A stretch of DNA of 64,000 bases from a virus (IMGVR_UViG_3300024268_000023); one strand, 5' to 3'. Shown: positions 41,438 to 56,425, counted from the first letter of the stretch. Numbers and translations: made by a program. Notes: generated by a model not told the origin, from the letters alone.

Positions 41438-41513
41438 TGGTTGGGGTGGCGGGATTCGAACCCACGAGATGCAGGAGTCAAAGTCCTGTGCCTTACCGCT
41501 TGGCGACACCCCA
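41438..41513 (-). tRNA. tRNA-Gln(TTG)
   Basis: Hand-folded cloverleaf close to E. coli tRNA-Gln (UGGGGUGUCGCCAAGCGGUAAGG...). Anticodon loop CTTTGAC. CCA is encoded. Confidence 0.7.
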
Positions 41514-41516
41514 GTG

Positions 41517-41592
41517 TGGAGCTTCTATACGGAATCGAACCGTAAACCTGTTCATTACGAATGAACCGCTCTGCCAGTTGAGCTATAGAAGC
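41517..41592 (-). tRNA. tRNA-Thr(CGT)
   Basis: Acceptor GCTTCTA/TAGAAGC. D-arm GCTC-AACTGGCA-GAGC. Anticodon stem GTTCA/TGAAC with loop TTCGTAA. T-arm TACGG-TTCGATT-CCGTA. Confidence 0.6.
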
Positions 41593-41671
41593 AAGCTTAA
41601 GCTGGTTATCTCAAAAAACGGTACCGACGCGAGCGCCAATTCCTGGAAACCAGATAACCATGGTTTTGAGC

Positions 41672-41747
41672 TGGTGGGCCTTGAGGGACTCGAACCCCCA
41701 ACCAACCGCTTATGAGGCGGCTCCTCTGCCAGTTGAGCTAAAGGCCC
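41672..41747 (-). tRNA. tRNA-Met(CAT) (elongator or Ile-lysidine type)
   Basis: Acceptor GGGCCTT/AAGGCCC. Anticodon loop CTCATAA. T-loop TTCGAGT. Confidence 0.6.
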
Positions 41748-41856
41748 AGAAAGACGCGGTCTTTCCCGCCGTCAGCCGACTTTCATCGGCAATTTTATGA
41801 AGAATAAAAAAGCAGCGGCATCTGTACCCTCGCAAGAAAGGATAAAAGATGGCCTT

Positions 41857-41939
41857 GGTGCGCCTGACAGGACTTGAACCCGCAAGCCATTCGACACCAG
41901 ATCCTAAATCTGGCGCGTTTGCCATTTCGCCACAGGCGC
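41857..41939 (-). tRNA. tRNA-Leu(TAG)
   Basis: Acceptor GCGCCTG/CAGGCGC. Anticodon loop TTTAGGA. Long variable arm. 83 nt. Confidence 0.65.
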
Positions 41940-42283
41940 ATTTTCGCTGAAGTGGGGCGGAGATTGCGCCGCCCCACGCCCGGTCAGTTTTTATTTTACC
42001 GACGTGTCAGAACCGTCACACGTCATCACAACAGCGGAAGGTGTTTAGGTGAGCACCTTCAAGCTCAATTGCTACTCGCCTCACGAGCACATAAACACAG
42101 GAGGGTTGCAATTTCCTCATCTCCAATAATGGCGACGGCAGCACGTTCCGTCCTCTGTGCGTGGGGCAACATCAGTGGCGACACTTATTTCACAACCACC
42201 ATAAGAACCTGCACCAGCGCAGGCACCGGTACAGTAAGAAATTAGTTACCGATTTCTTATGCGAAGTGTCTTTAATGCGAATG

Positions 42284-42357
42284 GAGCGGATAACGGGAGT
42301 CGAACCCGCCTATCCAGCTTGGGAAGCTGGCATTCTACCGATGAACTATATCCGCAA
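42284..42357 (-). tRNA. tRNA-Gly(CCC)
   Basis: Acceptor GCGGATA/TATCCGC. Anticodon stem CCAGC/GCTGG with loop TTCCCAA. Confidence 0.65.
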
Positions 42358-42429
42358 GTAGGCGTGGCAGACTATAAAGCGGCCTGCCGGCGCTTTGAAA
42401 AAGGAGGGATTATGATTAATACTTATACT

Positions 42430-42504
42430 TGGAGCTGGTGGACGGATTTGAACCCCCAACCTGCTGATTACAAATCAGCTGCACTGCCATTGTGCTACAC
42501 CAGC
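42430..42504 (-). tRNA. tRNA-Thr(TGT)
   Basis: Acceptor GCTGGTG/CACCAGC. Anticodon stem GCTGA/TCAGC with loop TTTGTAA. Confidence 0.65.
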
Positions 42505-42558
42505 GCATGCCCTCGTCTTTCCGAGGCGTCAGCCTTGTACTGAGGCAAGATACATATC

Positions 42559-42628
42559 TCATGGCGGCAGGAATCGAACCTGAGACACGCCCCTCTCTGG
42601 GCTGCTCTACCAACTGAGCTACGCCATG
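42559..42628 (-). tRNA. degenerate/short tRNA-like gene (70 nt, anticodon arm not foldable by hand)
   Basis: Perfect 7-bp acceptor CATGGCG/CGCCATG. Canonical D-arm GCTC-AGTTGGTA-GAGC and T-loop TTCGATT. The 19 nt between the D- and T-arms do not form a standard anticodon stem. CCA is not encoded. Confidence 0.3.
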
Positions 42629-42711
42629 TTGTTTGAGGATTTATTTTACAACTAATCCTCAAAAGTTGTTATGAAAGGAATCGCTTTTGTTTTGGAAATT
42701 TAATTTCCAAA

Positions 42712-42795
42712 CTGGTGCCGGGCAGGGGACTCGAACCCCTACGAATTGCTCGTCAGGGCTTAAACCTGATGTGTCTGCCAATTTCACCACCCCGG
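42712..42795 (-). tRNA. tRNA-Leu(TAA)
   Basis: Anticodon stem TCAGG/CCTGA with loop TTTAAGC. Long variable arm. T-arm AGGGG-TTCGAGT-CCCCT. 84 nt. Confidence 0.6.
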
Positions 42796-42799
42796 CTTA

Positions 42800-43204
42800 T
42801 TACGACACCAATTGTTTTTCTCTTCTGTATTTTCCTATGCAACTCTTAGAGCAGAAAGGGCCTAATTGGCGTCTATATCTATTCCCATAATAATTTTGTT
42901 GCTGTTTAGCCGTCCATAAAAATTCTTTTCCGCAATAAACACAAACAGCAACTTTATCATGGTACTTCGATGGCATATGTTGACGTTGATGTTCACCATG
43001 CATAATAATTTGTAGGTTATCTAATTCATTATTCAATGGGTTTCCATCAATATGGTGAACGTCTTCTTCGGGTAATAATTCACGCCCAAGAAATTGTTCC
43101 ATTAAAAAACGAGGATAGGAAATTACTTTTTTCGATTCTTTAATATAAACCCTTTGTCTGCCGTCTTTACATGTATAGACAGTATAATCTAGGCCTTCAA
43201 TCAA
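42800..43204 (-). CDS. HNH homing endonuclease
   Basis: HHIDGNPLNNELDNLQ...HGEH motif (HNH with the Asn/His spacing). C-terminal Cys4 zinc finger. Embedded in the tRNA array. Confidence 0.75.
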   Translation of the reverse strand: MIEGLDYTVYTCKDGRQRVYIKESKKVISYPRFLMEQFLGRELLPEEDVHHIDGNPLNNELDNLQIIMHGEHQRQHMPSKYHDKVAVCVYCGKEFLWTAKQQQNYYGNRYRRQLGPFCSKSCIGKYRREKQLVS

Positions 43205-43359
43205 ATGGCATCATCCTTTCATATTACGACCCGCAGTGCTTATAACCCTCTACTCAGCACTTGATTTCTCCCGATTAGTTATGCCATCTAACCGCAATAG
43301 AAATCGTTCCCAATTCTACATTCAAAGGAGGGTGTCTATTATAATAATGTATAATAGAT

Positions 43360-43437
43360 TGGTGCCGGTGGTGGGATTCGAACCCACAGAAAAACGCATT
43401 TTGAGTACGCCCCGTTTGCCAATTACGACACACCGGC
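43360..43437 (-). tRNA. tRNA with ambiguous anticodon (CAA in a class-I body, or UCA opal-suppressor-like)
   Basis: Good acceptor (GCCGGTG/CACCGGC) and T-arm (GTGGG-TTCGAAT-CCCAC). Anticodon region GGCGTACTCAAAATGCG folds either with loop CTCAAAA (CAA) or loop ACTCAAA (UCA, with C33). There is no long variable arm, so it is not a normal tRNA-Leu. Confidence 0.4.
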
Positions 43438-43446
43438 ATTTTTATT

Positions 43447-43554
43447 TGGTGGCAAGGGTAGGATTTGAACCTACGAAGTTCTACGAGCGCACGCTAGCCA
43501 GCTCTACGAACGGGAATTTACGGTTCCCTTCTTTGACCACTTGAATACCTTAAC
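43447..43554 (-). tRNA. tRNA-like element, possibly tRNA-Tyr(GTA) with an unusually long (~37 nt) variable region, or a 3' tRNA fragment
   Basis: Clear 3' end (T-arm GTAGG-TTCAAAT-CCTAC, acceptor CCTTGCC, A, CCA). An anticodon-like hairpin GGGAA-CCGTAAA-TTCCC lies 50 nt upstream. The best 5' acceptor partner (GTTAAGG) makes the whole element 108 nt. Confidence 0.3.
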
Positions 43555-43561
43555 CATGTGA

Positions 43562-43639
43562 TGGTGGGGATGACAGGATTTGAACCTGCGGCTTCCTGTT
43601 CCCAAAACAGGAGCTCTAACCAAACTGAGCCACATCCCC
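43562..43639 (-). tRNA. tRNA-Pro(TGG)
   Basis: Acceptor GGGGATG/CATCCCC. D-arm GCTC-AGTTTGGTTA-GAGC. Anticodon stem CCTGT/ACAGG with loop TTTGGGA. CCA encoded. Confidence 0.7.
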
Positions 43640-43728
43640 AGATTTGCGCCGAGCGCCAACTCGGTGCAAATTTGCGAAACAACACAAATAAATGATATTT
43701 TGTTCCTCTTTTGCATTCCCCTTACGGG

Positions 43729-43804
43729 TGGGTCGAGGGGTAGGACTCGAACCTACGACTTTTAGCTTATGAGGCTAAATTGCTACCACTGCATCACCCT
43801 CGGA
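43729..43804 (-). tRNA. tRNA-Met(CAT), initiator-like (C1:A72 mismatch)
   Basis: Anticodon stem TTAGC/GCTAA with loop CTCATAA. The first acceptor pair is C:A, as in bacterial initiator tRNA. T-arm GTAGG-TTCGAGT-CCTAC. Confidence 0.55.
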
Positions 43805-43818
43805 TTTTTGCAATACTA

Positions 43819-43965
43819 TTTATTTTTGCTTTCGTCTTCAAAGAAGAAATCCCCACCAGTCTCCGGGTGTGTCCACAAACCATTGCCTAAATAGTATCTG
43901 CCTTGTTCGTCGTCTTCTCTGCTTTTGTTCATTTGATCATAATTAAGACCAAGTCCCATGACGTC
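43819..43965 (-). CDS. small hypothetical protein (~48 aa)
   Basis: AAAGGAGG RBS before the ATG (MGLGLNYDQMNKSREDD...). Sits between tRNA genes. Confidence 0.3.
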
Positions 43966-44022
43966 CTGCCTCCTTTCTATTGTTTCAGATGTTTTTTGAA
44001 GAGGGAATTAAAAAATTCCTTT

Positions 44023-44111
44023 GGCGGAGAGAGGGGGATTCGAACCCCCGCACGCTTTTACACGCCTATCGGTTTTCAAGACCGAACCCTTCAACCACTT
44101 GGGTATCTCTC
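44023..44111 (-). tRNA. tRNA-Ser(TGA)
   Basis: Acceptor GGAGAGA/TCTCTCC. Anticodon stem TCGGT/ACCGA with loop CTTGAAA. Long variable arm. 89 nt. Confidence 0.65.
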
Positions 44112-44169
44112 CACGCATGTGGGCTGATTGAATTATCTGGTCAATATTAATTCAAACTTTAGCGAAACA

Positions 44170-44250
44170 ATAAAACTCCCGAAAATAACCTGTCACACTT
44201 TCCGCCACAGTTTTGCTACAAGAATGTTTGAAGCAGGGAATGTACCTGGT
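44170..44250 (+). pseudogene. fragment of a tyrosine-integrase gene (catalytic-domain remnant)
   Basis: Encodes KITCHTFRHSFATRMFEAG, which is 16/20 identical to the window's integrase (ITCHTFRHTFATRLFESG) and about 75% identical at the nucleotide level. The remaining N-terminal ~350 codons of an integrase are absent, and the reading frame stops shortly downstream. Confidence 0.55.
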
Positions 44251-44319
44251 TCAAATTTCCAGATTTTTTACGTGTCAGCCCAACACGGAAAGCATTTTCT
44301 TTCGGCTTTTGCCTAGTCA

Positions 44320-44935
44320 GTCTGTGGTTACATGCTTTTCTTAACCCTCGTGCAAAGCTCCACAGATGTACGGAACTGACCCCATCATCTGCTTCATCGC
44401 TCGCCCCCGCCGAGCTTTTTGCAACAACGGGCAGCTTTGAACTCGGCCTTTTATTAGTCGCTTGCCGAGTAGCGACAAACATTTCACGCATCGAATAATT
44501 TATATACCGCACCATCGATAAGCGGTCTTTGTTTAAGTCCACATTAAGGCAGGGAATCACCTCGCCGAACTAGTCGGCTCCAGAACTCGTGACCAAAGAT
44601 TGGAACGAATTCGACGACCCTTTCTGCACATGGCAGACGGGCTAAAGCAAGATCTTACTTAAGACGAATAGCTATGCATTTCGTCTCTGGAATGCCGCTG
44701 TTAAGCGCAACGGCTTAGAAGCTATTCTCACATTCTGTGACGCATGGACGTTTCGCTGCTGAGTCTCGTGATGCCGTTGGCGTTAGCCATTAGGCATCTT
44801 CGTCGACTCAGCAGTCGAAACCCGAGCGCTCGTTCTCTCCTCCTAGGCGTGCCAGTGGCACGGCACGCCCTGGAGGAGAGTAACGAAAAAATCTTTGTGA
44901 TATTTTTTGTTTACTCCAGGTTACACCATAAAGCT
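44320..44935. ncRNA. GC-rich structured non-coding element A (~600 nt)
   Basis: GC content clearly above the flanking sequence. Multiple long inverted repeats (CTGCTGAGTC...GACTCAGCAG; CTCCTAGGCGTGCC...GGCACGCCCTGGAGGAG). No credible ORF. The right end carries the GGTYACACC motif shared with elements B and C. Confidence 0.4.
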
Positions 44936-45607: not shown

Positions 45608-45905
45608 TTTATAAAATATGTTTGATAACTTATCACACTTGCGGGCGCCGGCGTCGTAGGGCCCATAGCCTGATGGGCATGAGCTTTACCGTGTTAGATG
45701 TGTTTCATCGCAGATTTTTCAGGAAGGCTGCGGGTTAACTTTTTGATTTCTTTCGGGATACATGTGTAATCCTAGAATTCATGATCATCCGCCAGCTGCT
45801 GGAGTTCAGCAGTGCCTTCGCTTCCCAGACCTCGCAGGGTTGGTTACCTCCGGAGGCGTGGTACCCTTCTTTCTGCTAATTTTTTACTTTTGGTCACACC
45901 AAGAA
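45608..45905. ncRNA. GC-rich structured non-coding element B (~300 nt)
   Basis: GC-rich with a CTGCTGGAGTTCAGCAG hairpin. The right end (CTAATTTTTTACTTTTGGTCACACCAAGAAG) is homologous to element C (CTAATCATTTTCTTTTGGTCACACCTAAAAAA), with identical TTTTGGTCACACC. Confidence 0.4.
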
Positions 45906-46233: not shown

Positions 46234-46539
46234 TTATATAATTTCTTTTATATTGACTGATTCAAAGAGCGGAGCTAAAACGTCAGGGGAACAGTACCAT
46301 CCTGTTAAAGGTGAAACCCACTCTTGTTCTTTATCATCGAAGATTGCGTGTCCGTCTCTAATTGGTTTATCAAAACAGACACCGACCCAATCATTCCTAT
46401 CGTTCTGATTTCCAAATCCTTTACGATTAACGCATAAGACTGTTCCAACTAGGCCAACAAAGGAACGACCTCGCTCGGTATCGGTTATGTCGGTTGGTTT
46501 TTTGGTGCATCTGACTCTCTGCCCATAATGGAATTTCAT
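46234..46539 (-). CDS. small paralog-family protein 2 (ends SVNIKEII)
   Basis: 101 aa starting MKFHYGQRVRC. Confidence 0.55.
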   Translation of the reverse strand: MKFHYGQRVRCTKKPTDITDTERGRSFVGLVGTVLCVNRKGFGNQNDRNDWVGVCFDKPIRDGHAIFDDKEQEWVSPLTGWYCSPDVLAPLFESVNIKEII

Positions 46540-48369: not shown

Positions 48370-48609
48370 TTAGATTAAATCAGATATGTTTATAACTGGA
48401 ATTTTTCTGCCGATTCTGCGAACTTCTTCTGTTCCAATTTTAAAATGATGATGGCGTTTTCCATTCTCGTATTTTACTACGGCATATTCAGTGTGAGGAT
48501 CTAATCCAGATCCTCTGTCGATACGAATAACTTCACCTCGACCCCAGACTTTGTTCCAATATTTTGTTCCTTCGACAATGTCACCGATTTCAAGCACAAG
48601 GTCACTCAT
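48370..48609 (-). CDS. small paralog-family protein 9 (ends VINISDLI)
   Basis: 79 aa. Confidence 0.5.
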   Translation of the reverse strand: MSDLVLEIGDIVEGTKYWNKVWGRGEVIRIDRGSGLDPHTEYAVVKYENGKRHHHFKIGTEEVRRIGRKIPVINISDLI

Positions 48610-48911
48610 ATCAATTCCTCCAATCCAACAATGTCAGATGTAGCAATAACTACTTTTTTGATACAAAAACGGTTCCAATACCAACCATGACCGAAGATGC
48701 CTTCTTCTGAATCTTCTTCCATTTGGACGGTGGGATTGTCTCCGTCATTGTATGCTGCACTTTTTACTGTCATCTTTTTGCCAAGCCAATGATCCATTTC
48801 GCCAAACGAATTTTCTTTGCAAAGCCCATCAAGATCCCACTCATCAACTATGAGCACAGAATCTCCCGGCTTCAAATTCTGAAAAGCTTTCTCACTTATC
48901 ATCGTGCTCAA
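48606..48911 (-). CDS. small paralog-family protein 10 (ends IVGLEELI)
   Basis: 101 aa. Its start overlaps the RT stop codon. Confidence 0.5.
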   Translation of the reverse strand: MSTMISEKAFQNLKPGDSVLIVDEWDLDGLCKENSFGEMDHWLGKKMTVKSAAYNDGDNPTVQMEEDSEEGIFGHGWYWNRFCIKKVVIATSDIVGLEELI

Positions 48912-50053
48912 GCCTCCTTGATGCGAGCTAATAGTGCGTGCTCAATATCGATTTTATACTTTTCGCTAAGGTGAGAAATAACATAATCGGCGTATTCCTT
49001 CTCTTGCTGACGAAAGTAATTGAACTGACCGAGCACAACCTGAGCATCGTGTACTGAACGTTCGTGCCCGTTTTTTGTGTCCAAAGCCCAGTTTGTGAGC
49101 ATGGCTTTAATTTCATCTTTCTTTTTCCAGCCAATTGTGATTTCTTTGTTGGCATTATACATCAGTCCCAAATGGAAGTTGTGTCCCGCAAAGGAACAGT
49201 AGTGGGTTTTCTTCGTGTTGAGCACGAAAGGAGCACCACAGTCTTTCAACATAACGAGCACGGCTTTTTCGATTTCCTTTGGGTTGAAATCTTTTGAGCA
49301 CGAAACACAGATATCATCCGCATATCTTGTGTAGTAAAACTTTTTGTCTCCATAGTTATGAGCGAGACTTTTTGACATTTCAAAATCAAAAGGAATCATA
49401 AGTAAGTTCGTGAGCATGGGAGAGATAGGGGTTCCTTGAGGCAGGCCTCCTTTGAGAAAACAGAGCTTAAGGCAATGCTCAAGAGCAATTTTCCCTTCCG
49501 GATGTTCAACAATCATACAAAAAGGGTAAATATGCGTGATGGTTTCCCATGCATATTTAAATGTAAAACTTCCAAAAAAGTTATGGAAGTCAAGGTATTC
49601 AAACCAACGACTGCCTCTGTTGGCATGGTACAATCTCTCATCTTTGGTTCCTCTACCAGGGACGTAAGCATATGCAGAAGTATGCCATTTTGCAGCACAG
49701 TCGTATTCAAAGCAATGTCTGAGAAGCTTGAGGCTTGACTTTAAGGCACCGAGAGGCTCGTCGATAGGACGTTTACCGCCATTCTTCTTAGGTATTTCAT
49801 AATGACGATAGTATTTCTCCATATGTGCCAAATCAAAGTCCTTAGTGGCTTCCACAATTCTTTCGAGTGAACGAATCATAGAATGCACATGAGTTTTCGA
49901 TTTTATGGCAAACGGAATTGCTTCTGTCTTGATGGTTCTTGTGTAGGGGATATCTCTTCTGTTTATGTTTTCAAAACTAAAATCCCCTGCTAAAAATTCA
50001 TCAATCGTGATTTGCTTTTCATGGGGAGAGGCAGGTAAAGTTATGTAATACAT
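48908..50053 (-). CDS. reverse transcriptase (retron/group-II-like, stand-alone)
   Basis: RT motif 4 LPQGTPISPMLTNLLM (QGxxxSP) and motif 5 YYTRYADDICVSC (YADD). 381 aa. No maturase, endonuclease or Zn domain. A 390-bp GC-rich non-coding region lies immediately upstream. Confidence 0.8.
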   Translation of the reverse strand: MYYITLPASPHEKQITIDEFLAGDFSFENINRRDIPYTRTIKTEAIPFAIKSKTHVHSMIRSLERIVEATKDFDLAHMEKYYRHYEIPKKNGGKRPIDEPLGALKSSLKLLRHCFEYDCAAKWHTSAYAYVPGRGTKDERLYHANRGSRWFEYLDFHNFFGSFTFKYAWETITHIYPFCMIVEHPEGKIALEHCLKLCFLKGGLPQGTPISPMLTNLLMIPFDFEMSKSLAHNYGDKKFYYTRYADDICVSCSKDFNPKEIEKAVLVMLKDCGAPFVLNTKKTHYCSFAGHNFHLGLMYNANKEITIGWKKKDEIKAMLTNWALDTKNGHERSVHDAQVVLGQFNYFRQQEKEYADYVISHLSEKYKIDIEHALLARIKEA

Positions 50054-50059
50054 TATTGC

Positions 50060-50440
50060 TCCTTTCTTCCATATCCTATATATGTGATTGCTGCTACTTC
50101 AGATCAGGAACACTAGTTGTTACTGGGTTACAGCAATTCTTTGGGTAGAGGTGAGTTACCTGTACTAGTGATAAGCTCATCTTGGCACACATGATTTCGT
50201 GTGTGATGTCGCGAGCAACCACGGTTTTGAGTTGTTTCTCTTTTGAGGTTTGAGTGAACTTACGAAGCACCCGTTCGAGATCTAGGATGCCAATCGCCGT
50301 CCCAGGGCTATTACCTTCTACTAATCATTTTCTTTTGGTCACACCTAAAAAATCGCTTTCGTTTCATGACACTTAGCGCGATCGATATGGATTTTTATTT
50401 TTGTTTACTTGAGGAGCTCTAATGAGCTCCGGTTCTTCTA
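50060..50440. ncRNA. GC-rich structured non-coding element C, upstream of the RT on the same strand
   Basis: No ORF. It carries inverted repeats (CACACATGATTTCGTGTGTG; GGAGCTC-TAAT-GAGCTCC) and the shared CTAAT...TTTTGGTCACACC motif. It is a candidate RT-associated ncRNA. Confidence 0.4.
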
Positions 50441-50441
50441 A

Positions 50442-51122
50442 TTAAAATGCCTTAGAATAAGACATGAAGGGATTGGAGAAAATAATATGTTTCCATTCTT
50501 CTCCTTTTACCATTCTCATAAAGTTTGCAACAGCCATCGAACAAATGCATCTGATAGTAGGTGCGACAGAAAGAGGCTGGTTGCACGCAGATACGGGCTG
50601 TTGCTCGTCTGCTTCTTCTTTGGTGAACTGCATGGTAGAAAGAAGACGCTCTTGGTCTTTAATGCTCTGCCAGTCAGCAGCATAATGCTGAGCATCTTCA
50701 AGACCTACGCGGATATCAAAGATACCTTTGATGGCCGGGTTACCAGAGTTTTCCTCACAAATTTTCTTTCTCAGCTCGATGTTATCGACTGCGAGAAATA
50801 CATATCCATCGAGAGGCTGATCACTGTAACCGTGTTTAAAAAGGCGAAGTCCTTTCGAACCGATTTCAATATCGGGGTTGATGCGAGTCATCATTTCTGC
50901 AACAGCATCAACTTTGAGCCGACCGATATCGGTTGCGTAAAACATCTGATTCGCTACGTTATGAGCTTCGACTGTGTCAAAGTCATAAAGCGAAACTTTT
51001 GTGAGACCGAGACGAGCAATATTTTCTGCAACAGTGCTGCCTACTGCACCACAGCCGATGATATGCACTCTGCCGTCACATTTTTCGGGCTTGAAAAATT
51101 CATAAGAACGTACAAGATCCAT
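50442..51122 (-). CDS. E1-like (ThiF/MoeB-family) adenylyltransferase
   Basis: Rossmann GCGAVGS and the YDFDTVEAHNVANQ ThiF/E1 signature. 226 aa. Confidence 0.65.
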   Translation of the reverse strand: MDLVRSYEFFKPEKCDGRVHIIGCGAVGSTVAENIARLGLTKVSLYDFDTVEAHNVANQMFYATDIGRLKVDAVAEMMTRINPDIEIGSKGLRLFKHGYSDQPLDGYVFLAVDNIELRKKICEENSGNPAIKGIFDIRVGLEDAQHYAADWQSIKDQERLLSTMQFTKEEADEQQPVSACNQPLSVAPTIRCICSMAVANFMRMVKGEEWKHIIFSNPFMSYSKAF

Positions 51123-51138
51123 AATCCAAATTCCTTTC

Positions 51139-51576
51139 TTATATGATTTCGTTTATGTTTACAGATTCATTCTGTTTGAAAATCTGAGCATAATTTCCAA
51201 CTGCATTGGGAGCAACATCAGACTCTATAGAGCGCTGAATACCGCAATATTCCCACAAATCTCCGTTGTATAATTCTTCGTTATCTTCTAAGTCTTCGCC
51301 AATGTGAACGTAAACGTATTGGATGTTTTCGCTGTCACAATGATACAGATATTGCATCGTCGCATCTACATCGGAAAATTCACGGTACCATTTTGTGGTA
51401 TATATTTTTGCCAATATTACAGGATTGGATGGGTCTTTTCGATTTTCAAACAAACTGTAATCATCAGCATGCGTCCAAGTGCGATGCGCTTCCTCGTTGG
51501 AAGCTTTGAAATGATTGAGCATATCCATAAAATCTTTTTTATACATTGCAAGTCCAACATCACTGTAGTATCCCAT
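51139..51576 (-). CDS. hypothetical protein (ends SVNINEII)
   Basis: 145 aa with the shared C-terminal motif. Confidence 0.45.
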   Translation of the reverse strand: MGYYSDVGLAMYKKDFMDMLNHFKASNEEAHRTWTHADDYSLFENRKDPSNPVILAKIYTTKWYREFSDVDATMQYLYHCDSENIQYVYVHIGEDLEDNEELYNGDLWEYCGIQRSIESDVAPNAVGNYAQIFKQNESVNINEII

Positions 51577-51587
51577 ACAAAGCCTCC

Positions 51588-52001
51588 TTATATGAGCTCA
51601 TCGATTCCGACGAGTTCTATGATTTCATTTGTAACGTAGTAAACTTCGTTATATTCTCTGATATCTCTCAAAACCCATTCTTCATCAAGTTCTTCGGATT
51701 GAATATAACTCGAAAGATATGTGATATTTGCGTCACTATTGAATGAAGCTGAGTCAAACTCATCAAAAGCCTCATCAAGATCGTAATCATAGAACGGGGC
51801 AAAGATTCTGTGATCCTCACCAAACGCCCAAAGGCTTGTATAGCCAAGCGCCTTTGCTTGATCTGGGTTATGGACAAGAACAGCCACTCTTTTCTTTGCA
51901 ATGCGAGACAACTCGTCTGGAGTGATGGGCATAGGATTTAACCCAAATCCGTCCCGTATAAATTTGCAAAATTTTCTATTTGCCTCCTGTTCAGAAAACA
52001 T
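51588..52001 (-). CDS. hypothetical protein (ends LVGIDELI)
   Basis: 137 aa with the shared C-terminal motif. Confidence 0.45.
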   Translation of the reverse strand: MFSEQEANRKFCKFIRDGFGLNPMPITPDELSRIAKKRVAVLVHNPDQAKALGYTSLWAFGEDHRIFAPFYDYDLDEAFDEFDSASFNSDANITYLSSYIQSEELDEEWVLRDIREYNEVYYVTNEIIELVGIDELI

Positions 52002-52014
52002 TTAACCACTCCTT

Positions 52015-52329
52015 TCAAATTATTTCTTCAATATTAACTAAGGAGAAATCACTTGTGAGTTCGTCTCCAGTGAAATACTCCCATTCTTCTGTGAAATCAA
52101 CTCGATAAGTATTGACGAGGTCTGGTGAATCATCCCAAGTGTCTTCAAAGCATCTCGAGACCACGCCTTTGTCCCCAATTTGAATTTTTTCCGTGGGAGG
52201 CTCAGAATGACACTGCCGCACATAAATGACGCGGTCTCCTTCTTTGAACTTGAATTTAGTACCCATACTGACTACCATACTGGTTACCGTAAAATCCTTT
52301 GTAACTACCGTACTGAGCAATAGCATCAT
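52015..52329 (-). CDS. hypothetical protein (ends LVNIEEII)
   Basis: 104 aa with the shared C-terminal motif. Confidence 0.45.
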   Translation of the reverse strand: MMLLLSTVVTKDFTVTSMVVSMGTKFKFKEGDRVIYVRQCHSEPPTEKIQIGDKGVVSRCFEDTWDDSPDLVNTYRVDFTEEWEYFTGDELTSDFSLVNIEEII

Positions 52330-53296
52330 GCTCTTCTTTTATGATTTCTGCTTCAACAAGAAGGTCGTCTATTGTGTTTTTGGTGAAGCCAGCGTTAACA
52401 GACTCGAGCAATTCTTCAAGAATTTCGTCTGCTTCAAGCCAACCTACGGTAAGGGCAGTAACGATAGTGCTTGCAGAAATCTGGAGCTGAGTCTTAGTGA
52501 GAGGTTTCTTTTTCCCAGACTCTTTTCCTTTAGAGCCTTTGGATTCTTTAGTGCCGGAAGAAGCACCAGAAGTGGAAGGGAATTGGCTCACGTTAGATTT
52601 ACTGTAATTGGAATTATAAGTTCCACCGTAGGTTTTGGCTTTGAGCTTATCTTCTTTTTCGGTTTTCACCCACCCGAGAAGGTCTTCTCCAACGGGTACC
52701 ACAAAATCAATTTCTTTTGTATCAAAGAGAGCATTGCTTTCCATATCGTAAAGAGCTCCAGTGAACTCAAAAGATTTATTCATAATGAAGAAGATAAAGA
52801 ACCCATCATCGTCAAGAGTTTCAACTACTTCCTTTCTGCAAATCATATCTGTAGAAGAGGGGGAAGGAGCCATATTGACATGAGAATGTCCCTGAAAATT
52901 AAGTTTGCATCTCTGCTGAACAGGAATTTTTGAAAGCCACAGAGCCCTTTCGGTTTCATCCGCTTCAACGGTTGCAGAAGCGACTTTCTGAGGGTAAACA
53001 AGAATGTCGGTAATTTTGAAATGAGTTTCATCGATGCGATCGACAATACCATTCCAAGCAACCTCACTGTTTGTCATACAAACAAGAGCGGACATTTTAG
53101 CCCATGCTTCGGGAGTAAACTCGACCTGGGGTCTGTCATAGTCTTTTGAAGTGTAAGCATAAGGCATTTTGAACTCAATGGTTCCGTCTTTAAGAACATC
53201 AGTTTTGAGTTTTTCAAGAAACGAATCTACTTTTTCAAGCAGAGCTGCCTTGGTTTCTTCAATCATGTTTTCAGTTGCTCTAATAGGTTTCGGCAT
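52256..53296 (-). CDS. JAB/MPN+ (JAMM) metalloprotease domain protein
   Basis: The HSHVNMAPSPSSTD stretch matches the JAMM motif HxHx7Sx2D, with an upstream Glu. A Lys/Ser-rich linker leads to a C-terminal domain. The 5' end overlaps the previous gene, so the true start may be internal. Confidence 0.65.
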   Translation of the reverse strand: MPKPIRATENMIEETKAALLEKVDSFLEKLKTDVLKDGTIEFKMPYAYTSKDYDRPQVEFTPEAWAKMSALVCMTNSEVAWNGIVDRIDETHFKITDILVYPQKVASATVEADETERALWLSKIPVQQRCKLNFQGHSHVNMAPSPSSTDMICRKEVVETLDDDGFFIFFIMNKSFEFTGALYDMESNALFDTKEIDFVVPVGEDLLGWVKTEKEDKLKAKTYGGTYNSNYSKSNVSQFPSTSGASSGTKESKGSKGKESGKKKPLTKTQLQISASTIVTALTVGWLEADEILEELLESVNAGFTKNTIDDLLVEAEIIKEEHDAIAQYGSYKGFYGNQYGSQYGY

Positions 53297-53308
53297 AAAT
53301 TTCCCTCC

Positions 53309-54775
53309 TTAACTGTTTTCTCTAAGCCATGCAACTGCATCTATGTAGTTTACTTTGCGTCCATCAGGAAGAAGATAAGGACACTGATGTTTATTCCAAA
53401 GCTGTTCTTTGGAGTATCTTTCAACTACGCAATCATCGGTGAATACGAGATATGGGCAAGAACCAATTGCCTGAGAAACGGCACCAACGTAGTTGCCGAC
53501 GCTCATGCATTCAGTCATTCTGCTCTCGTTGGTTCCAAGACATCTGTAATAGTAATGATGCGGCTGGGGAGCATATCCGGCGAATTTAGGAGCGGGTTCG
53601 CAAAGTCCCGGTTCATCTTTGCTTATTACAGAAAGAGTTCCGCGCTCAAGGGAAAGTCTGAAGTTCGAATAAACAGGAACCTTAATTTCACGCTCAATAA
53701 AGACTGACTCCATGAGCTTGATTGCTTCTTTTTCAGTAATTTCCTTTTCTTTATCGCGATAAGCACAGTAAATTCTTCTGCGGATATCATCAATGTCATG
53801 AGTCGGGTCTTTAAACGCTGTGAGATTTGCGGTGGCGGTAAAAATGAGATCATTGCCTTGCCAAGTGCGAATCGCAATTGAAGGTCTTCCAGTGAAAAGA
53901 ACTGCAAGTTCAGAGCCATCACCATCTTCGTCTACCTCAAGAGAACGTTTTCTAAGATAGCTATCCCTGATGCGTGCTGCATAATCTTCAAGCTTTGCAA
54001 CGGTATCACGATACTGTCTGTTAAGATTATCCAGTTCAGAGGTCGCATTACGAAGGAGTTTTCCTTTTACGCTTTTGTAAGCATTTTTGAATTTGATGCT
54101 CTGTACTTTTTCAGCAACATCAGTTCCTTCATAAATTTTCTGAGCAGCGGCAACAAATTCGTTATCACCAATGTCGATAGCTCTAACAAGTTCTCTTTCA
54201 AGTTCATTGAGGGGATGGTTTTCAAAAGTAAAATCGGGTTTCACATTGAAATACCAAGGAATAATTCTGGGGCATACTGCTGCACACACGTTCCAGAAAT
54301 ATTCACCAACGATAGAACCGACAACGACTGAAATCTTGTCTTTTTCGTTGTAATAAGTTTGAATAAAGTCGCCTTCATTTTTATATTCCTGTTTTTCGAT
54401 GCGACCATCGAAAAACTTATTTACTATATCGTTAGGCACAAAGCCACGTTTTGTAAAAATAGCTTTGAGCGGAGTTTTCAAAGTTTTGTACTGTCCTACA
54501 TAAATGTAGTAAAGGGAACCAGGTGTAAGTTCCAGTGCTTCAACTTTTCCCTTTGTGCCATCGACGGTTTCGTTTGCGAAGTTTATGGAAGTAAAGTTGA
54601 AGATTTCCCCATCTTTAAGTCTCGGAGGAAGACATGCTCTAAAGACGATACGGGGAACCTCGTGTTTGTCTTGTTCAGTTCCATGCTCTACGATGTTCGG
54701 ATAACATTCGGCAAGGGCAAGCTCGCCTATTTCGATGTGGGTAGAGAGCTCAGCTACAGGATATCTTTCATCCAT
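53309..54775 (-). CDS. large hypothetical protein in E1/JAB neighbourhood
   Basis: 488 aa with several Cys/His pairs near the C-terminus. No E2 HPN motif seen. Confidence 0.45.
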   Translation of the reverse strand: MDERYPVAELSTHIEIGELALAECYPNIVEHGTEQDKHEVPRIVFRACLPPRLKDGEIFNFTSINFANETVDGTKGKVEALELTPGSLYYIYVGQYKTLKTPLKAIFTKRGFVPNDIVNKFFDGRIEKQEYKNEGDFIQTYYNEKDKISVVVGSIVGEYFWNVCAAVCPRIIPWYFNVKPDFTFENHPLNELERELVRAIDIGDNEFVAAAQKIYEGTDVAEKVQSIKFKNAYKSVKGKLLRNATSELDNLNRQYRDTVAKLEDYAARIRDSYLRKRSLEVDEDGDGSELAVLFTGRPSIAIRTWQGNDLIFTATANLTAFKDPTHDIDDIRRRIYCAYRDKEKEITEKEAIKLMESVFIEREIKVPVYSNFRLSLERGTLSVISKDEPGLCEPAPKFAGYAPQPHHYYYRCLGTNESRMTECMSVGNYVGAVSQAIGSCPYLVFTDDCVVERYSKEQLWNKHQCPYLLPDGRKVNYIDAVAWLRENS

Positions 54776-54868
54776 TTGCGGTTCACTCCTTATTTGAATG
54801 TAAAATTATTTTGAAAGGGAAGGAGGGTGGTTGCCCACCCTCCATAGAAAAGGGAATGGGTCGAACGA

Positions 54869-55090
54869 TTAAGCGTTCTGAAGTTTGTTGGAAACAACGA
54901 TGTCAACGATGTTGCTTCCATCAGCGAGAGAATTGAGAGTGACGTTGCAATCGGTTACAACATCGGAGTTGACGATGATCTGTCTGGAGGTGGCAATGCC
55001 GTGTCCTTCGCAGAACTGTTTGAGGGTCATGCCTCCATCAACGATTTCGGATTTGCAGTTGGAATCAACAGAATAGTAAACCTGTACCAT
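54869..55090 (-). CDS. small beta-rich protein, possible ubiquitin-like (ThiS/MoaD-like) candidate
   Basis: 73 aa. LADGSNIVDIV resembles the MoaD/ThiS C-terminal strand, but the protein ends ...KLQNA rather than GG. Confidence 0.3.
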   Translation of the reverse strand: MVQVYYSVDSNCKSEIVDGGMTLKQFCEGHGIATSRQIIVNSDVVTDCNVTLNSLADGSNIVDIVVSNKLQNA

Positions 55091-55202: not shown

Positions 55203-55589
55203 TCAGATGACAGTGACTGTTTCTCTGATAGCGGCTTTTTCTTTCTCGATTTCCTTGAGGGCAGTTGCGATATTTGCTTCAACTTTGTTTACACGAAGAA
55301 TTGCAACGCCAACTGCTTCTACCACGAGGTCTTCGGCTTTGCCAGCACCTTTGGGGAGAGGCATAGTGAGGCAAGCGACAGATTTTTCTGCGTGGGTTTC
55401 ATCGTTGAACTGAACGCAGAAGGTGTCGATCTGTGCCTTTTCACCGAATCCTACGGCGAAAACAGGACGCTTGTCCTCGTCGAAGAGTTTGAGGAGATTG
55501 GGACGGTATTTTGCGACAGTCTGGATTTCCTCCTTGGTGTATTCGCTTTCGATTACGTAGACGCTACCAGCGACTTTGATTTTTGCCAT
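55203..55589 (-). CDS. hypothetical protein
   Basis: 128-aa ORF. Confidence 0.45.
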   Translation of the reverse strand: MAKIKVAGSVYVIESEYTKEEIQTVAKYRPNLLKLFDEDKRPVFAVGFGEKAQIDTFCVQFNDETHAEKSVACLTMPLPKGAGKAEDLVVEAVGVAILRVNKVEANIATALKEIEKEKAAIRETVTVI

Positions 55590-56077: not shown

Positions 56078-56425
56078 TCATATCAACTCCTCTATGTTCA
56101 CAAGCGTTCCAGCAGCAGGAACGATATAATACTCCAAGTCATTCCAATCTTCATTGTCGTAAATAGACTTAAGATTGCCGCTTGTAAAATAAGTGTTCTT
56201 CGAGTATAGCGGATTGAACAGAAGCATATTTGCATATCCATAGCCGGAATTGATGTTCATGCTACCGAACAATACCTTTTCGGAGGGGTTCTCCGTCACC
56301 AAAACGCACATTCCGTGTTCTTTTGTTTGACGAAGACAACGGATTTGTTCAAGAGTCATAAACCTCAAACGCGATTCGTGCCCATGGCTGGTGACACCTT
56401 GGATAAAATCTTCCTTTGATATCAT
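56078..56425 (-). CDS. hypothetical protein (ends LVNIEELI)
   Basis: 115 aa with the shared C-terminal motif. Confidence 0.45.
   Translation of the reverse strand: MISKEDFIQGVTSHGHESRLRFMTLEQIRCLRQTKEHGMCVLVTENPSEKVLFGSMNINSGYGYANMLLFNPLYSKNTYFTSGNLKSIYDNEDWNDLEYYIVPAAGTLVNIEELI

What the first reader, a model, noticed from the sequence alone, without database searches (positions are those of the whole stretch)
50442..55090. Phage-encoded E1-like / JAB / putative Ubl neighbourhood
A ThiF/E1-like adenylyltransferase (50442-51122; GCGAVGS and DFDTVEAHNV) lies near a JAMM metalloprotease (52256-53296; HSHVNMAPSPSSTD). A 488-aa multi-Cys protein and a 73-aa beta-rich protein (54869-55090) follow, and the small protein's LADGSNIVDIV segment resembles a ThiS/MoaD-like Ubl. 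E1/JAB/Ubl operons are known in bacteria, including as anti-phage conjugation systems, and occasionally on phage tails. Here the module is interleaved with C-terminally tagged small proteins, and no clear E2 is visible. It may be a non-canonical or phage-adapted version, possibly an anti-defence decoy or de-conjugating enzyme set.
Basis: partly seen in the sequence, partly recalled or inferred. Interest (0 to 1): 0.68.

Follow-up and report, generated by a model that had tools for sequence, protein, structure and literature searches.

The report
Phage ubiquitin-like conjugation cassette beside retron
A virus of gut bacteria carries a compact gene set that looks like a complete ubiquitin-type protein-tagging system (tag, activating enzyme, probable carrier enzyme, removal enzyme) next to a retron reverse transcriptase, and the same six genes recur together in about 200 fetched related viral and metagenome-assembled loci, yet I found no description of it in any library or paper I searched.

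Summary

A six-gene cassette, P130-Ubl-E2-like-JAB-E1-(ncRNA)-retron-type RT, is the only conserved gene set across 148 JAB-anchored loci. Their flanks are not conserved. In the reciprocal RT-anchored search, 74 of 79 loci had the cassette, and the other five are cut by contig ends.

The Ubl ends in an invariant Ala (usually Asn-Ala), followed in some homologs by 1-3 extra residues, as in a trimmed precursor.

The tagged small ORFs between JAB and E1 are lineage-specific insertions. No library or paper searched describes the cassette. The mechanism is inferred (E1 to E2 to target, with JAB trimming and deconjugating), and its biological role and its coupling to the retron are unproven.

The parts
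55203..55589 (-). P130: 128-aa protein of unknown fold, first gene of the cassette. Lys27 (codon 55511-55509) in the motif K-[YF]-R-P is nearly invariant.
   Evidence: Homologs are found just upstream of the Ubl in 131 of 148 loci. There are no Pfam or PDB hits. Conservation is shown.
54869..55090 (-). Ubl: 73-aa beta-grasp protein ending ...K-L-Q-N-A. Ala73 (codon 54874-54872) is the predicted reactive C-terminus.
54822..54843 (-). GC-rich hairpin (9 bp stem, 7 GC pairs) in the 93-nt gap between the Ubl and the E2-like gene. It may be an attenuator or RNA-stability element.
   Evidence: Terminator-like scan and the sequence itself. Function not tested.
53309..54775 (-). X: 488-aa probable E2-like carrier. 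The N-terminal 57 residues were modelled at low confidence. Residues ~58-155 form a MoaB/Mog-like alpha/beta domain. Residues 220-280 form a long helix. Residues ~288-488 form a UBC/RWD-like domain carrying His406 (53560-53558) and Cys412 (53542-53540) in the motif P-x-P-H-x5-C-x-G.
52256..53296 (-). JAMM/MPN+ metallopeptidase (346 aa). Catalytic residues are Glu78 (53065-53063) and H137-S-H139-x7-S147-x2-D150 (52888-52847). It also has an N-terminal extension, a Ser/Gly/Lys-rich linker, a C-terminal helical region and a Tyr/Gly-rich tail.
   Evidence: PADLOC JAB hit at 1e-4. The family has 2,356 cluster representatives at E<=1e-3.
51139..52329 (-). Three small ORFs (52015-52329, 51588-52001, 51139-51576) ending ..VNIEEII, ..VGIDELI and ..VNINEII. 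They are lineage-specific insertions between JAB and E1, not core parts of the cassette.
   Evidence: The number of inserted ORFs varies from 1 to 7 in the close relatives. It is zero in most distant relatives, where E1 starts within a few bases to about 100 nt of the JAB stop.
50442..51122 (-). E1-like adenylyltransferase (226 aa, single domain). It has GCGAVGS (P-loop-like GxGxxG), Asp113 (50786-50784) in AVDN, and the invariant Cys180 (50585-50583) in P-V-S-A-C. It has no Zn-binding CxxC pairs and no rhodanese domain.
   Evidence: Pfam ThiF 7.7e-23. PDB profile hits. NCBIfam hits are all below their cut-offs. Identity is 84-97% in the clade. C180 is 100% conserved in 62 unique sequences.
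50413..50430 (-). Conserved GC-rich hairpin immediately after the E1 stop codon, probably marking the end of the Ubl transcription unit.
   Evidence: (present in all 7 clade members).
50066..50393 (-). Retron-type ncRNA candidate (msr-msd). Inverted repeat a1 is TCCATATC (50391-50384) and a2 is GATATGGA (50075-50068). Between them lie a conserved 5' block and a variable centre. The element ends 14 nt before the RT start codon.
   Evidence: Alignment A7. The minimum-free-energy fold closes a1 with a2. The a1/a2 arms covary between clades at the same place. There is no Rfam match.
48908..50053 (-). Retron-type reverse transcriptase (381 aa). The YADD motif is at residues 244-247 (49324-49313).
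   Evidence: Pfam RVT_1 1.1e-18. PADLOC RT_II-A 1.1e-43. NCBIfam retron St85 family 3.5e-48, 164 bits against a cut-off of 235. An RT lies downstream of E1 in 197 of 202 loci with enough flank.

Best explanation
The region is one copy of a conserved cassette of temperate phages of gut Clostridia. It encodes a self-contained ubiquitin-like conjugation and deconjugation system, Bil-like in gene order (Ubl, E2-like, JAB, E1), with an extra 128-aa protein in front and a retron (ncRNA plus RT) behind.

Proposed mechanism, all of it inferred:
1. The 73-aa Ubl is made with, or trimmed by the JAMM peptidase to, a free C-terminal Ala.
2. The homodimeric minimal E1 adenylates that carboxylate and takes it onto Cys180 as a thioester.
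3. The Ubl passes to Cys412 of the 488-aa protein, whose C-terminal UBC-like domain acts as the E2. Its N-terminal domains presumably choose the target.
4. The Ubl is ligated to a lysine of a target that is not yet known. P130 with its conserved Lys27, another phage protein, or a host protein are candidates.
5. The JAMM peptidase reverses the modification.

The retron is a separate transcription unit but an obligate neighbour, so it probably works with the cassette as a sensor or regulator. The overall role is most likely in virus-host or virus-virus conflict.

What is shown: domain identities, catalytic-residue conservation, the Ubl tail pattern and the gene linkage. What is not shown: every chemical step, the target and the biological role.
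For: - E1, JAMM and beta-grasp identities.
- Candidate catalytic residues are invariant. E1 C180, X H406 and X C412 are 100% conserved; the JAMM E/H/H/S/D residues are at least 90% conserved.
- The Ubl tail is an invariant Ala followed by 0-3 unconserved residues. This parallels BilA, which has a conserved Gly plus up to 9 residues that BilC trims (PMC10557695).
- A C-terminal Ala is an accepted E1 substrate in type II CBASS (PMC10097602).
- The gene order Ubl-E2-DUB-E1 is the same as in bilABCD.
- Six families are near-universal across 148 loci (126-142 loci each), while the best flanking family is in only 40.
- The RT-anchored search recovers the cassette in 74 of 79 loci, and the other five are truncated by contig ends.
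- An integrase elsewhere in the window indicates a temperate phage.
Against: - The Ubl lacks the C-terminal Gly or Gly-Gly that nearly all known Ubls have.
- The E1 aligns with known E1s confidently only over its Rossmann half in the PDB and PADLOC searches, so the catalytic role of Cys180 is positional inference.
- No target, E3 or effector is identifiable.
- Four phage loci (L013, L112, L118, L125) keep the Ubl genes but have no RT within at least 3.5 kb. A hairpin separates E1 from the retron. The two parts may therefore be functionally separable.
- All loci come from one broad group of gut phages and MAGs, so inherited synteny contributes to the linkage signal.
Confidence: 0.6

Rival explanations
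1. Sulfur-carrier or biosynthetic system. The beta-grasp protein would be a ThiS/MoaD-type carrier that the E1 adenylates and that is then thiocarboxylated, with the JAMM peptidase maturing its C-terminus as in the CysO/Mec+ and QbsE/QbsD systems. The sulfur would go to a cofactor, a tRNA or DNA. The 488-aa protein would be the downstream transferase.
For: - The best NCBIfam E1 hits are ThiF/MoeB models.
- The phage carries a large tRNA array.
Against: - There is no Gly-Gly tail; the end is Asn-Ala.
- Among the cassette proteins scanned there is no rhodanese, cysteine desulfurase, PP-loop ATPase or other sulfur enzyme.
- All ThiF/MoeB hits are far below the equivalog cut-offs.
- The MoaB similarity is to a generic flavodoxin-like fold.
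- The UBC/RWD-like domain with its invariant His/Cys, and the Bil-like gene order, fit conjugation better.
Confidence: 0.1
2. The Ubl cassette and the retron are independent systems that merely travel together in one hyper-variable accessory region of this phage group. The Ubl part works as in the best explanation, and the retron does something unrelated.
For: - A conserved hairpin follows E1, and the ncRNA has its own conserved 5' block, so these are separate transcription units.
- In 82 of 204 loci, 0.6-2.5 kb of other genes lie between E1 and the retron.
- Four phage loci have the Ubl genes but no RT.
- No described retron type that I know of, or that the literature searches returned, has Ubl-type effectors.
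Against: - The RT follows E1 in 197 of 202 loci with flank.
- It is recovered reciprocally: 74 of 79 RT-anchored loci have the cassette and the rest are truncated.
- No flanking gene family exceeds 27% occupancy.
- The order and orientation never vary.
Confidence: 0.35
3. CBASS-like priming without a true Ubl. The E1 and E2-like proteins would conjugate the C-terminus of an enzyme, such as the RT or the JAB protein itself, as Cap2 does with cGAS. The 73-aa beta-grasp would be only an adaptor.
For: - The best PADLOC matches of the E1 and JAB are the CBASS Cap2 and Cap3 models.
- The window RT ends in Ala, as do 43% of its relatives.
- Some JAB homologs end in YLGG plus one residue.
Against: - The C-termini of the RT and JAB are not conserved. 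The Ubl's terminal Ala is invariant and is followed by variable extensions.
- The Ubl gene sits in the BilA position.
- The Cap2 similarity is confined to the Rossmann segment, residues 15-95.
Confidence: 0.07
4. Phage counter-defence set. The cassette would neutralise host Ubl-based immunity (Bil or CBASS type II) by decoy Ubl loading or by stripping conjugates with the JAMM peptidase.
For: - It is phage-borne, lies among small accessory genes and belongs to a large phage-specific JAB family.
- Its Ala terminus is shared with some CBASS cGAS proteins.
Against: - Nothing here speaks to host systems. A deconjugase alone would suffice for stripping, yet E1, E2-like, Ubl and P130 are all strictly retained.
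- The association with a retron and the temperate lifestyle fit a prophage-carried defence at least as well.
- This is a rival only about biological role, not about chemistry.
Confidence: 0.15

Closest known systems
BilABCD (bacterial ISG15-like) anti-phage ubiquitination operons, types I and II (operon families 6D and 6C of Iyer et al. 2006)
   Same: - A four-part set of stand-alone Ubl, E2, JAMM DUB and E1 in the same order, Ubl-E2-DUB-E1.
- The Ubl has a conserved reactive residue followed by unconserved residues, which in Bil the DUB removes.
- The E2 has a conserved Cys with a nearby His.
- The system lies in a conflict-related genomic setting.
   Different: - It is carried by phages, not by bacterial defence islands.
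- The Ubl ends in Ala, not Gly.
- The E1 is a 226-aa single adenylation domain, not a multidomain IAD+AAD+CYS protein.
- The 'E2' is a 488-aa multidomain protein with no detectable sequence similarity to BilB.
- There is an extra 128-aa protein and an attached retron.
- No library model matches X, JAB or the Ubl at the usual significance cut-offs; the only hit is a weak PADLOC Cap3-type match for JAB (E=1e-4).
Type II CBASS Cap2 (E1-E2 fusion) and Cap3 (JAMM)
   Same: - These are the best defence-library matches for the E1 (Cap2 models, down to 7e-17) and the JAB (Cap3 models, 1e-4).
- The system is bacterial-type with a minimal E1.
- The conjugated C-terminus may be Ala.
- A JAMM peptidase serves as the deconjugase.
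   Different: - There is no CD-NTase and no nucleotide-activated effector nearby.
- The E1 and E2-like functions are separate proteins.
- The substrate is a true beta-grasp Ubl.
- The E1 similarity covers only the Rossmann segment.
Retrons, especially type II-A (St85/Sen2-like RT)
   Same: - The RT is most similar to retron RT models.
- A noncoding region of about 330 nt lies directly upstream, bracketed by covarying inverted repeats like a1/a2, with a conserved 5' part and a variable centre.
- The element is carried on a temperate phage, as some classical retrons are (my own knowledge).
   Different: - The scores are below NCBIfam's curated cut-off (164 against 235 bits).
- The retron-typical VTG motif reads N-L-G (by eye; consensus).
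- There is no Rfam msr match.
- The neighbouring conserved genes are a Ubl-conjugation set. As far as I know (from my own knowledge of the 13-type scheme of Mestre et al. 2020, not checked here), no described retron type has this as effector, and no searched paper links the two.
Lambda/T1 tail-assembly Ubl (TAPI) with the JAB-NlpC/P60 protein K
   Same: A phage-encoded beta-grasp protein with a JAB peptidase nearby (Iyer et al. 2006).
   Different: - The cassette is not in the tail module; the tail genes are at the other end of the window.
- There is no NlpC/P60 domain.
- There is no PHROG tail-family hit.
- An E1 and an E2-like protein are present, which tail modules lack.
ThiS/MoaD-ThiF/MoeB sulfur-carrier pairs
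   Same: The beta-grasp fold is closest to MoaD2/ThiS. The E1 is the same size as ThiF and MoeB and matches the same Pfam family.
   Different: - There is no Gly-Gly end.
- There is no Zn-binding CxxC pair in the E1.
- There are no sulfur-transfer partners.
- An E2-like protein is present.

Membership tests
E1 / ThiF-MoeB-Uba adenylyltransferase superfamily (Pfam PF00899) | Profile match above the curated threshold over the whole adenylation domain | tested here: met
   ThiF 81.3 bits against a cut-off of 28.1, covering residues 18-222.
E1 / ThiF-MoeB-Uba adenylyltransferase superfamily (Pfam PF00899) | Nucleotide-binding GxGxxG and the Mg/ATP-binding Asp | tested here: met
   G23-C-G25-A-V-G28 and D113 (AVDN) are at least 90% conserved in 62 sequences.
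E1 / ThiF-MoeB-Uba adenylyltransferase superfamily (Pfam PF00899) | Catalytic Cys in the crossover loop (true E1s as opposed to plain adenylases) | tested here: inconclusive
   Cys180 (PVSAC) is 100% conserved and lies just before the helix that follows the crossover loop. The C-terminal half does not align confidently to solved E1s, so the equivalence is positional only.
JAMM/MPN+ metallopeptidases | The E-x(n)-H-x-H-x7-S-x2-D metal and catalytic motif | tested here: met
   E78, H137, H139, S147 and D150 are invariant in 30 homologs of 29-53% identity.
JAMM/MPN+ metallopeptidases | Profile similarity to established members | tested here: met
   The family profile hits Rpn11 at E=2e-4 with the motifs aligned. 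2 of 30 homologs hit Pfam Prok-JAB at 8e-5. The window protein alone hits no Pfam model.
Ubiquitin-like beta-grasp modifiers | Beta-grasp fold | tested here: met
Ubiquitin-like beta-grasp modifiers | Flexible C-terminal tail ending in Gly or Gly-Gly | tested here: not met
   The tail is K-x-[DNQSK]-[NSG]-Ala. The Ala is invariant and no Gly-Gly is present. The only precedent for Ala is the type II CBASS cGAS proteins.
Ubiquitin-like beta-grasp modifiers | Covalent conjugation through the C-terminus | not testable with these tools
   Needs biochemistry. The pattern of 0-3 unconserved residues after the Ala is indirect support for processing.
E2 / UBC-fold conjugating enzymes | UBC fold (helix, four-stranded meander, helices) | tested here: inconclusive
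E2 / UBC-fold conjugating enzymes | Catalytic Cys after beta4 with a conserved His upstream (HPN..C) | tested here: inconclusive
   His406-x5-Cys412 are the only fully invariant residues in 82 sequences and sit in the expected place. The motif is PNPH rather than HPN, and the spacing is shorter.
E2 / UBC-fold conjugating enzymes | Sequence or profile similarity to known E2s | tested here: not met
   No E2 hits from the PDB profile search, Pfam or PADLOC. hhalign against four canonical E2s gives probability 0.1%.
BilABCD | Gene order Ubl-E2-DUB-E1 with four stand-alone proteins | tested here: met
   The order holds in all loci and matches PMC10557695.
BilABCD | Multidomain E1 (inactive and active adenylation domains plus a CYS domain), and a Ubl with a universally conserved Gly | tested here: not met
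   The E1 is 226 aa with one domain. The Ubl's conserved terminal residue is Ala.
Type II CBASS (Cap2/Cap3) | A CD-NTase and an effector in the operon, with an E1-E2 fusion protein | tested here: not met
   No CD-NTase or effector hit among the cassette and flanking proteins. The E1 is a separate protein.
Retron | RT belonging to the retron clade | tested here: inconclusive
   The best hits are retron models (PADLOC RT_II-A 1e-43; NCBIfam St85 family 3.5e-48). The score is 164 bits against a cut-off of 235, and the VTG motif reads NLG (consensus).
Retron | Upstream ncRNA bracketed by the inverted repeats a1 and a2 | tested here: met
   In the window, an 8-bp a1/a2 pair encloses about 310 nt and ends 14 nt before the RT start. 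The arms differ between clades but stay complementary at the same position. Inverted repeats of at least 9 nt occur in 32% of 84 non-redundant loci against 5.6% of shuffles.
Retron | Production of branched msDNA | not testable with these tools
   Requires detection of msDNA in cells that express the ncRNA and RT.
Lambda-type tail-assembly Ubl/JAB (TAPI/TAPK) | Location in the tail module, and a JAB fused to or next to NlpC/P60 | tested here: not met
   The cassette lies among small accessory genes about 46 kb from the tail gene. There is no NlpC/P60 domain and no PHROG hit.
ThiS/MoaD sulfur-carrier systems | A Gly-Gly C-terminus and an associated sulfurtransferase or biosynthetic enzymes | tested here: not met
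   The Ubl ends Asn-Ala. No such enzymes are present in the cassette.

The most novel reading that the evidence does not exclude
The cassette is a new class of retron system whose effector arm is a complete ubiquitin-like conjugation machine. Reverse-transcribed msDNA, or its perturbation during infection, would gate an E1 / E2-like / JAMM cascade that attaches an Ala-terminated Ubl to viral or host proteins. The system would be carried by temperate phages of gut Clostridia as a weapon against competitors or host defences. This would be the first link between retroelement-based sensing and Ubl conjugation, and the first complete E1-E2-DUB-Ubl system native to phages.
Probability: 0.35. Interest if true: 0.9.

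Novelty: new variant of a known kind. Interest (0 to 1): 0.78.

Why it matters
Ubiquitin-like conjugation in bacteria has been shown only in host defence systems (type II CBASS, Bil). Here the virus side appears to own a full set, with an unusual chemistry (a C-terminal Ala) and a very small E1 that could serve as a minimal model for E1-E2 transfer.

The cassette is abundant. The JAB family has 2,356 representatives at 50% identity, IMG/VR holds 469 RT relatives, and about 200 loci were examined directly. All come from human and animal gut samples, so it is a sizeable unannotated function of gut phages.

Its near-obligate pairing with a retron offers a concrete and testable case of what a retron does in a phage, and of how Ubl conjugation might be triggered. 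It also supplies a diverse set of compact RT-ncRNA pairs that may be useful for retron-based editing.

Tried and rejected
- Near-identity DNA search of the region against GenBank phages found no match. tblastn of X found none, and tblastn of JAB found one unannotated faecal phage.
- Single-sequence locus scans found almost nothing. Alignment-based scans were needed.
- The first word-index search with the 73-aa protein found only 2 proteins. The profile search found 10.
- Sequence-level tests of the E2 idea all failed: PDB profile, Pfam, PADLOC, hhalign against canonical E2s and Foldseek against PDB.
- P130 gave no hit in Pfam or PDB.
- The ncRNA matched nothing in Rfam. An nhmmer profile of its 5' block finds only the window's own clade.
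- I considered whether the C-terminal 'tag' of the small ORFs is just a Shine-Dalgarno/ATGA overlap. I rejected that as the sole cause, because 12 of 22 tagged ORFs do not overlap the next start and their codons vary synonymously.
- I considered whether the RT or JAB C-terminus could be the E1 substrate. I rejected it because those termini are not conserved.
- I considered whether the cassette is a tail-assembly module. I rejected it.
- The one isolate-genome hit, Allochromatium (L146), is a distant E1-JAB pair in a different order without X, Ubl or RT. It did not identify a closer known system.
- Literature searches for any phage E1/JAB/Ubl cassette, or for a retron-Ubl link, returned nothing relevant. 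Subscription-only papers were not searchable.

Full report
**Setting**

The window is part of a large temperate phage. It carries a tail protein, an integrase, ribonucleotide reductase, a DNA polymerase, a primase-helicase and a ligase. It also has an array of 12 or more tRNA genes with drum and skipping-rope RNAs. All genes between about 33 and 60 kb run on the minus strand. The exact proteins occur on metagenome contigs of up to 129 kb. The closest genome-collection relative is a contig binned with an Oscillospiraceae MAG, and most other relatives sit in Clostridia MAGs from human and animal guts.

**Check of the observation**

The four ORFs and the quoted motifs are present as described.

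- **E1.** The 226-aa protein is a ThiF/E1 adenylyltransferase: Pfam 7.7e-23, well above threshold, over residues 18-222. A family profile hits Uba1, MoeB, UBA5, Cap2, TcdA and MccB in PDB. It matches no NCBIfam equivalog above its cut-off, so it is an E1-superfamily member of no named subfamily.
- **JAB.** The 346-aa protein matches no Pfam model by itself. HSHVNMAPSPSSTD is nevertheless an exact HxHx7SxxD JAMM motif, with the expected Glu 59 residues upstream. These residues are invariant in homologs down to about 30% identity. The family profile aligns in register with Rpn11 (E=2e-4).

**The 488-aa protein**

It matches nothing in Pfam, PHROGs, PADLOC or NCBIfam. The word-index search found only ten relatives.

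The AlphaFold model (pLDDT 72, with the C-terminal 190 residues at 80-95) has four parts:
- a low-confidence N-terminus;
- a long helix;

Across 82 family members only His406 and Cys412 are 100% conserved, in the motif P-N-P-H-x5-C-x-G. That motif lies between the fourth strand and the following helix, which is the position of the HPN motif and catalytic Cys in E2 enzymes.

Every sequence-based test for E2 homology failed, and Foldseek found nothing significant. I therefore call it a probable E2-like carrier and mark the assignment as fold-level only.

**The real unit**

The six closest relatives keep the following order:
1. a 128-aa protein;
2. the 73-aa Ubl;
3. the roughly 487-aa protein X;
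4. JAB;
5. one to seven small ORFs;
6. E1;
7. a gap of about 360 nt;
8. an RT of about 382 aa.

The JAB protein belongs to a very large family, with 2,356 representatives at E<=1e-3. I used a JAB alignment to fetch 80 IMG/VR loci and 59 loci from GTDB genomes. Every locus with enough sequence has X, JAB and E1 in the same order, usually directly abutting. Nearly all have a Ubl of about 75 aa and a protein of about 130 aa upstream and the RT downstream.

I clustered all same-strand ORFs of 148 loci. Exactly six families are near-universal:

| Family | Loci (of 148) |
|---|---|
| X | 142 |
| E1 | 137 |
| P130 | 131 |
| RT | 129 |
| JAB | 126 |
| Ubl | 126 |
| Next most frequent family | 40 |

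The cassette is therefore conserved while its surroundings are not.

The reverse experiment agrees. An RT alignment recovered 469 RT relatives in IMG/VR. Of the best 79 new loci, 74 have X-JAB-E1 upstream, and the remaining five are cut off by the contig end. Overall the RT follows E1 in 197 of 202 loci with at least 3.5 kb of downstream sequence. Four phage loci, and one distant Allochromatium locus, lack it.

The small tagged ORFs between JAB and E1 are thus insertions specific to this clade and a few others. They are not part of the core.

**The Ubl tail**

In the window's clade the protein ends K-x-x-N-A, with Lys69, Asn72 and Ala73 invariant. Across 62 unique sequences recovered with the Ubl profile (five with different tails are probably P130 proteins), the pattern is K-x-[DNQSK]-[NSG]-A. 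About half of them stop at the Ala. The rest add one to three unconserved residues such as R, A, AA, GQ, LAA, VVM or AI.

This is the signature of a modifier whose reactive end is exposed by trimming. BilA likewise has a conserved Gly followed by up to nine residues that the JAMM protein BilC removes (PMC10557695). A terminal Ala is unusual but has a precedent: the cGAS proteins conjugated by Cap2 end in Gly or Ala, and Gly-to-Ala mutants still form the thioester (PMC10097602).

**The retron**

The RT's best models are retron RTs: PADLOC type II-A at 1e-43, and the NCBIfam St85 family at 3.5e-48, though below its cut-off.

The 388-nt gap between E1 and the RT contains, in order:
- a conserved hairpin right after the E1 stop;
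- a conserved 5' block;
- a variable centre;
- an 8-9-nt segment (GATATGGA) complementary to TCCATATC at the 5' end, finishing 14 nt before the RT start.

In other clades the two arms have different sequences but remain complementary at the same position. Examples are ATCGTGAT/ATCACGAT..CTGTAAT/ATTACAG....CCGTAAT/ATTACGG....TGCAAT/ATTGCA.. and ..TGTAAC/GTTACA... Inverted repeats of at least 9 nt occur in 32% of 84 non-redundant loci against 5.6% of shuffles.

That is the architecture of a retron msr-msd RNA. There is no Rfam match, and msDNA itself cannot be shown here.

**Mechanism**

The gene order (Ubl, E2-like, JAMM, E1) is that of bilABCD. The catalytic residues of all three enzymes are conserved, and the Ubl tail behaves like a processed modifier. 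The most economical reading is a Ubl cascade:
1. JAMM trims the Ubl to ..Asn-Ala.
2. The E1, probably as a homodimer like other single-domain E1s, adenylates Ala73 and forms a thioester on Cys180.
3. The Ubl is transferred to Cys412 of X.
4. It is ligated to a target lysine.
5. JAMM reverses the modification.

The large non-catalytic part of X, and P130 with its nearly invariant Lys27, are candidates for target selection or for being the target.

The retron is transcriptionally separate, to judge from the hairpin and its own conserved 5' block. It is nevertheless almost never lost, which suggests it senses or regulates. This step is the weakest part of the argument.

The biological role is open. 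It could be a prophage-borne defence against other phages, a counter-defence, or modification of the phage's own proteins.

**Comparison with known systems, and novelty**

Functionally the cassette works most like Bil and, more distantly, like Cap2/Cap3. It fails the membership tests for both:
- the E1 has a single domain;
- the Ubl terminus is Ala;
- there is no CD-NTase;
- X and the Ubl match no family model, and JAB has only a weak Cap3-type match.

It is neither a lambda-type tail-assembly Ubl/JAB pair nor a sulfur-carrier system (see the membership table). No paper in the searchable library describes a phage E1/E2/JAB/Ubl cassette or a retron linked to Ubl enzymes. None of the exact proteins carries a name in any source.

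I rate it a new variant of a known kind: Ubl conjugation operons, here phage-borne, minimal, Ala-terminated and retron-linked. There is a substantial chance that it represents a new type of retron system.

**Caveats**
- All inference is computational.
- The E2 call depends on a medium-confidence model.
- The loci come from one broad group of gut phages, so shared ancestry inflates the linkage counts. The non-conservation of the flanks and the low identities (JAB about 35%, the X C-terminal domain 14-26%) argue that selection maintains the set.

Noticed in passing
window 33739-58612, minus strand (22 ORFs; for example 46234-46539, 48606-48911, 51588-52001, 56078-56425): Twenty-two small proteins of about 70-160 aa end in the same heptapeptide, [VI]-[NG]-[IVL]-[EDSK]-[ED]-[LI]-I-COOH. 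In 10 of them the stop overlaps the next ATG (ATATGA) and in 12 it does not. Codons differ synonymously, so the conservation is at the peptide level. Related phages carry other lineage-specific tails on their small ORFs (..EEFI; ECxC[ED]SLL; C[KR]SLL; x[ED]xLL). The function is unknown; a C-terminal degron or a docking tail are possibilities. Many N-termini look SH3/KOW-like (weak Pfam hits in relatives).
   Followed up: partly
window 48908-50393 (-): A retron-type RT with an upstream ncRNA bracketed by inverted repeats lies directly after the E1 gene. It turned out to be a near-obligate neighbour of the Ubl cassette.
   Followed up: yes
window 45872-45905 (-), and equivalent places in L002, L004, L006 and L008: There is a second, partial copy (about 34 nt: TTGGTGTGACCAAAAG.AAAA.ATTAG) of the conserved 5' block of the retron ncRNA. 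It lies in a noncoding gap about 3 kb downstream of the RT and is conserved in position in related loci. It may be a shared regulatory or RNA motif.
   Followed up: no
window 54822-54843 (-): A strong GC-rich hairpin (9-bp stem) lies between the Ubl gene and the E2-like gene. It could set a high ratio of Ubl to enzymes by partial termination or transcript stabilisation.
   Followed up: no
window 41438-44402 (-): A tRNA array holds 12 genes by ARAGORN and 13 by Rfam. One has an aberrant anticodon loop (42559-42628) and one is a weak long candidate (43450-43554). A skipping-rope RNA (42093-42162) and a drum RNA (44287-44402) are interspersed.
   Followed up: no
window 11176-12435 (-); 6253-7161 (+): A tyrosine-type integrase (phrog_1, 4.6e-65) indicates a temperate lifestyle. 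An HNH/homing-endonuclease-like gene sits near the tail genes.
   Followed up: no
window 52256-52330 (C-terminus of JAB), and JAB homologs in L009-L147: JAB proteins end in a Tyr/Gly-rich tail (window: YGNQYGSQYGY). In several other clades the tail is Y-L-G-G followed by one residue (K, R or E), which is reminiscent of a ubiquitin precursor end. It is not conserved enough to call.
   Followed up: partly
L013, L112, L118, L125: These four phage loci keep P130, Ubl, X, JAB and E1 but have no RT within at least 3.5 kb downstream. They are natural 'retron-less' variants and useful for testing whether the two parts depend on each other.
   Followed up: partly
L146 7201-8675 (Allochromatium humboldtianum DSM 21881, contig NZ_JABZEO010000001.1): This was the only isolate-genome hit. 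It is a distant E1-JAB pair in the opposite order, without X, Ubl or RT. It lies next to a dCTP deaminase and a P4-type primase, probably on another mobile element.
   Followed up: partly
window 55509-55511 (Lys27 of the 128-aa protein): The motif K-K-[YF]-R-P with Lys27 is about 90% conserved across otherwise divergent P130 proteins (22-69% identity). It is a candidate acceptor lysine or interaction site.
   Followed up: no
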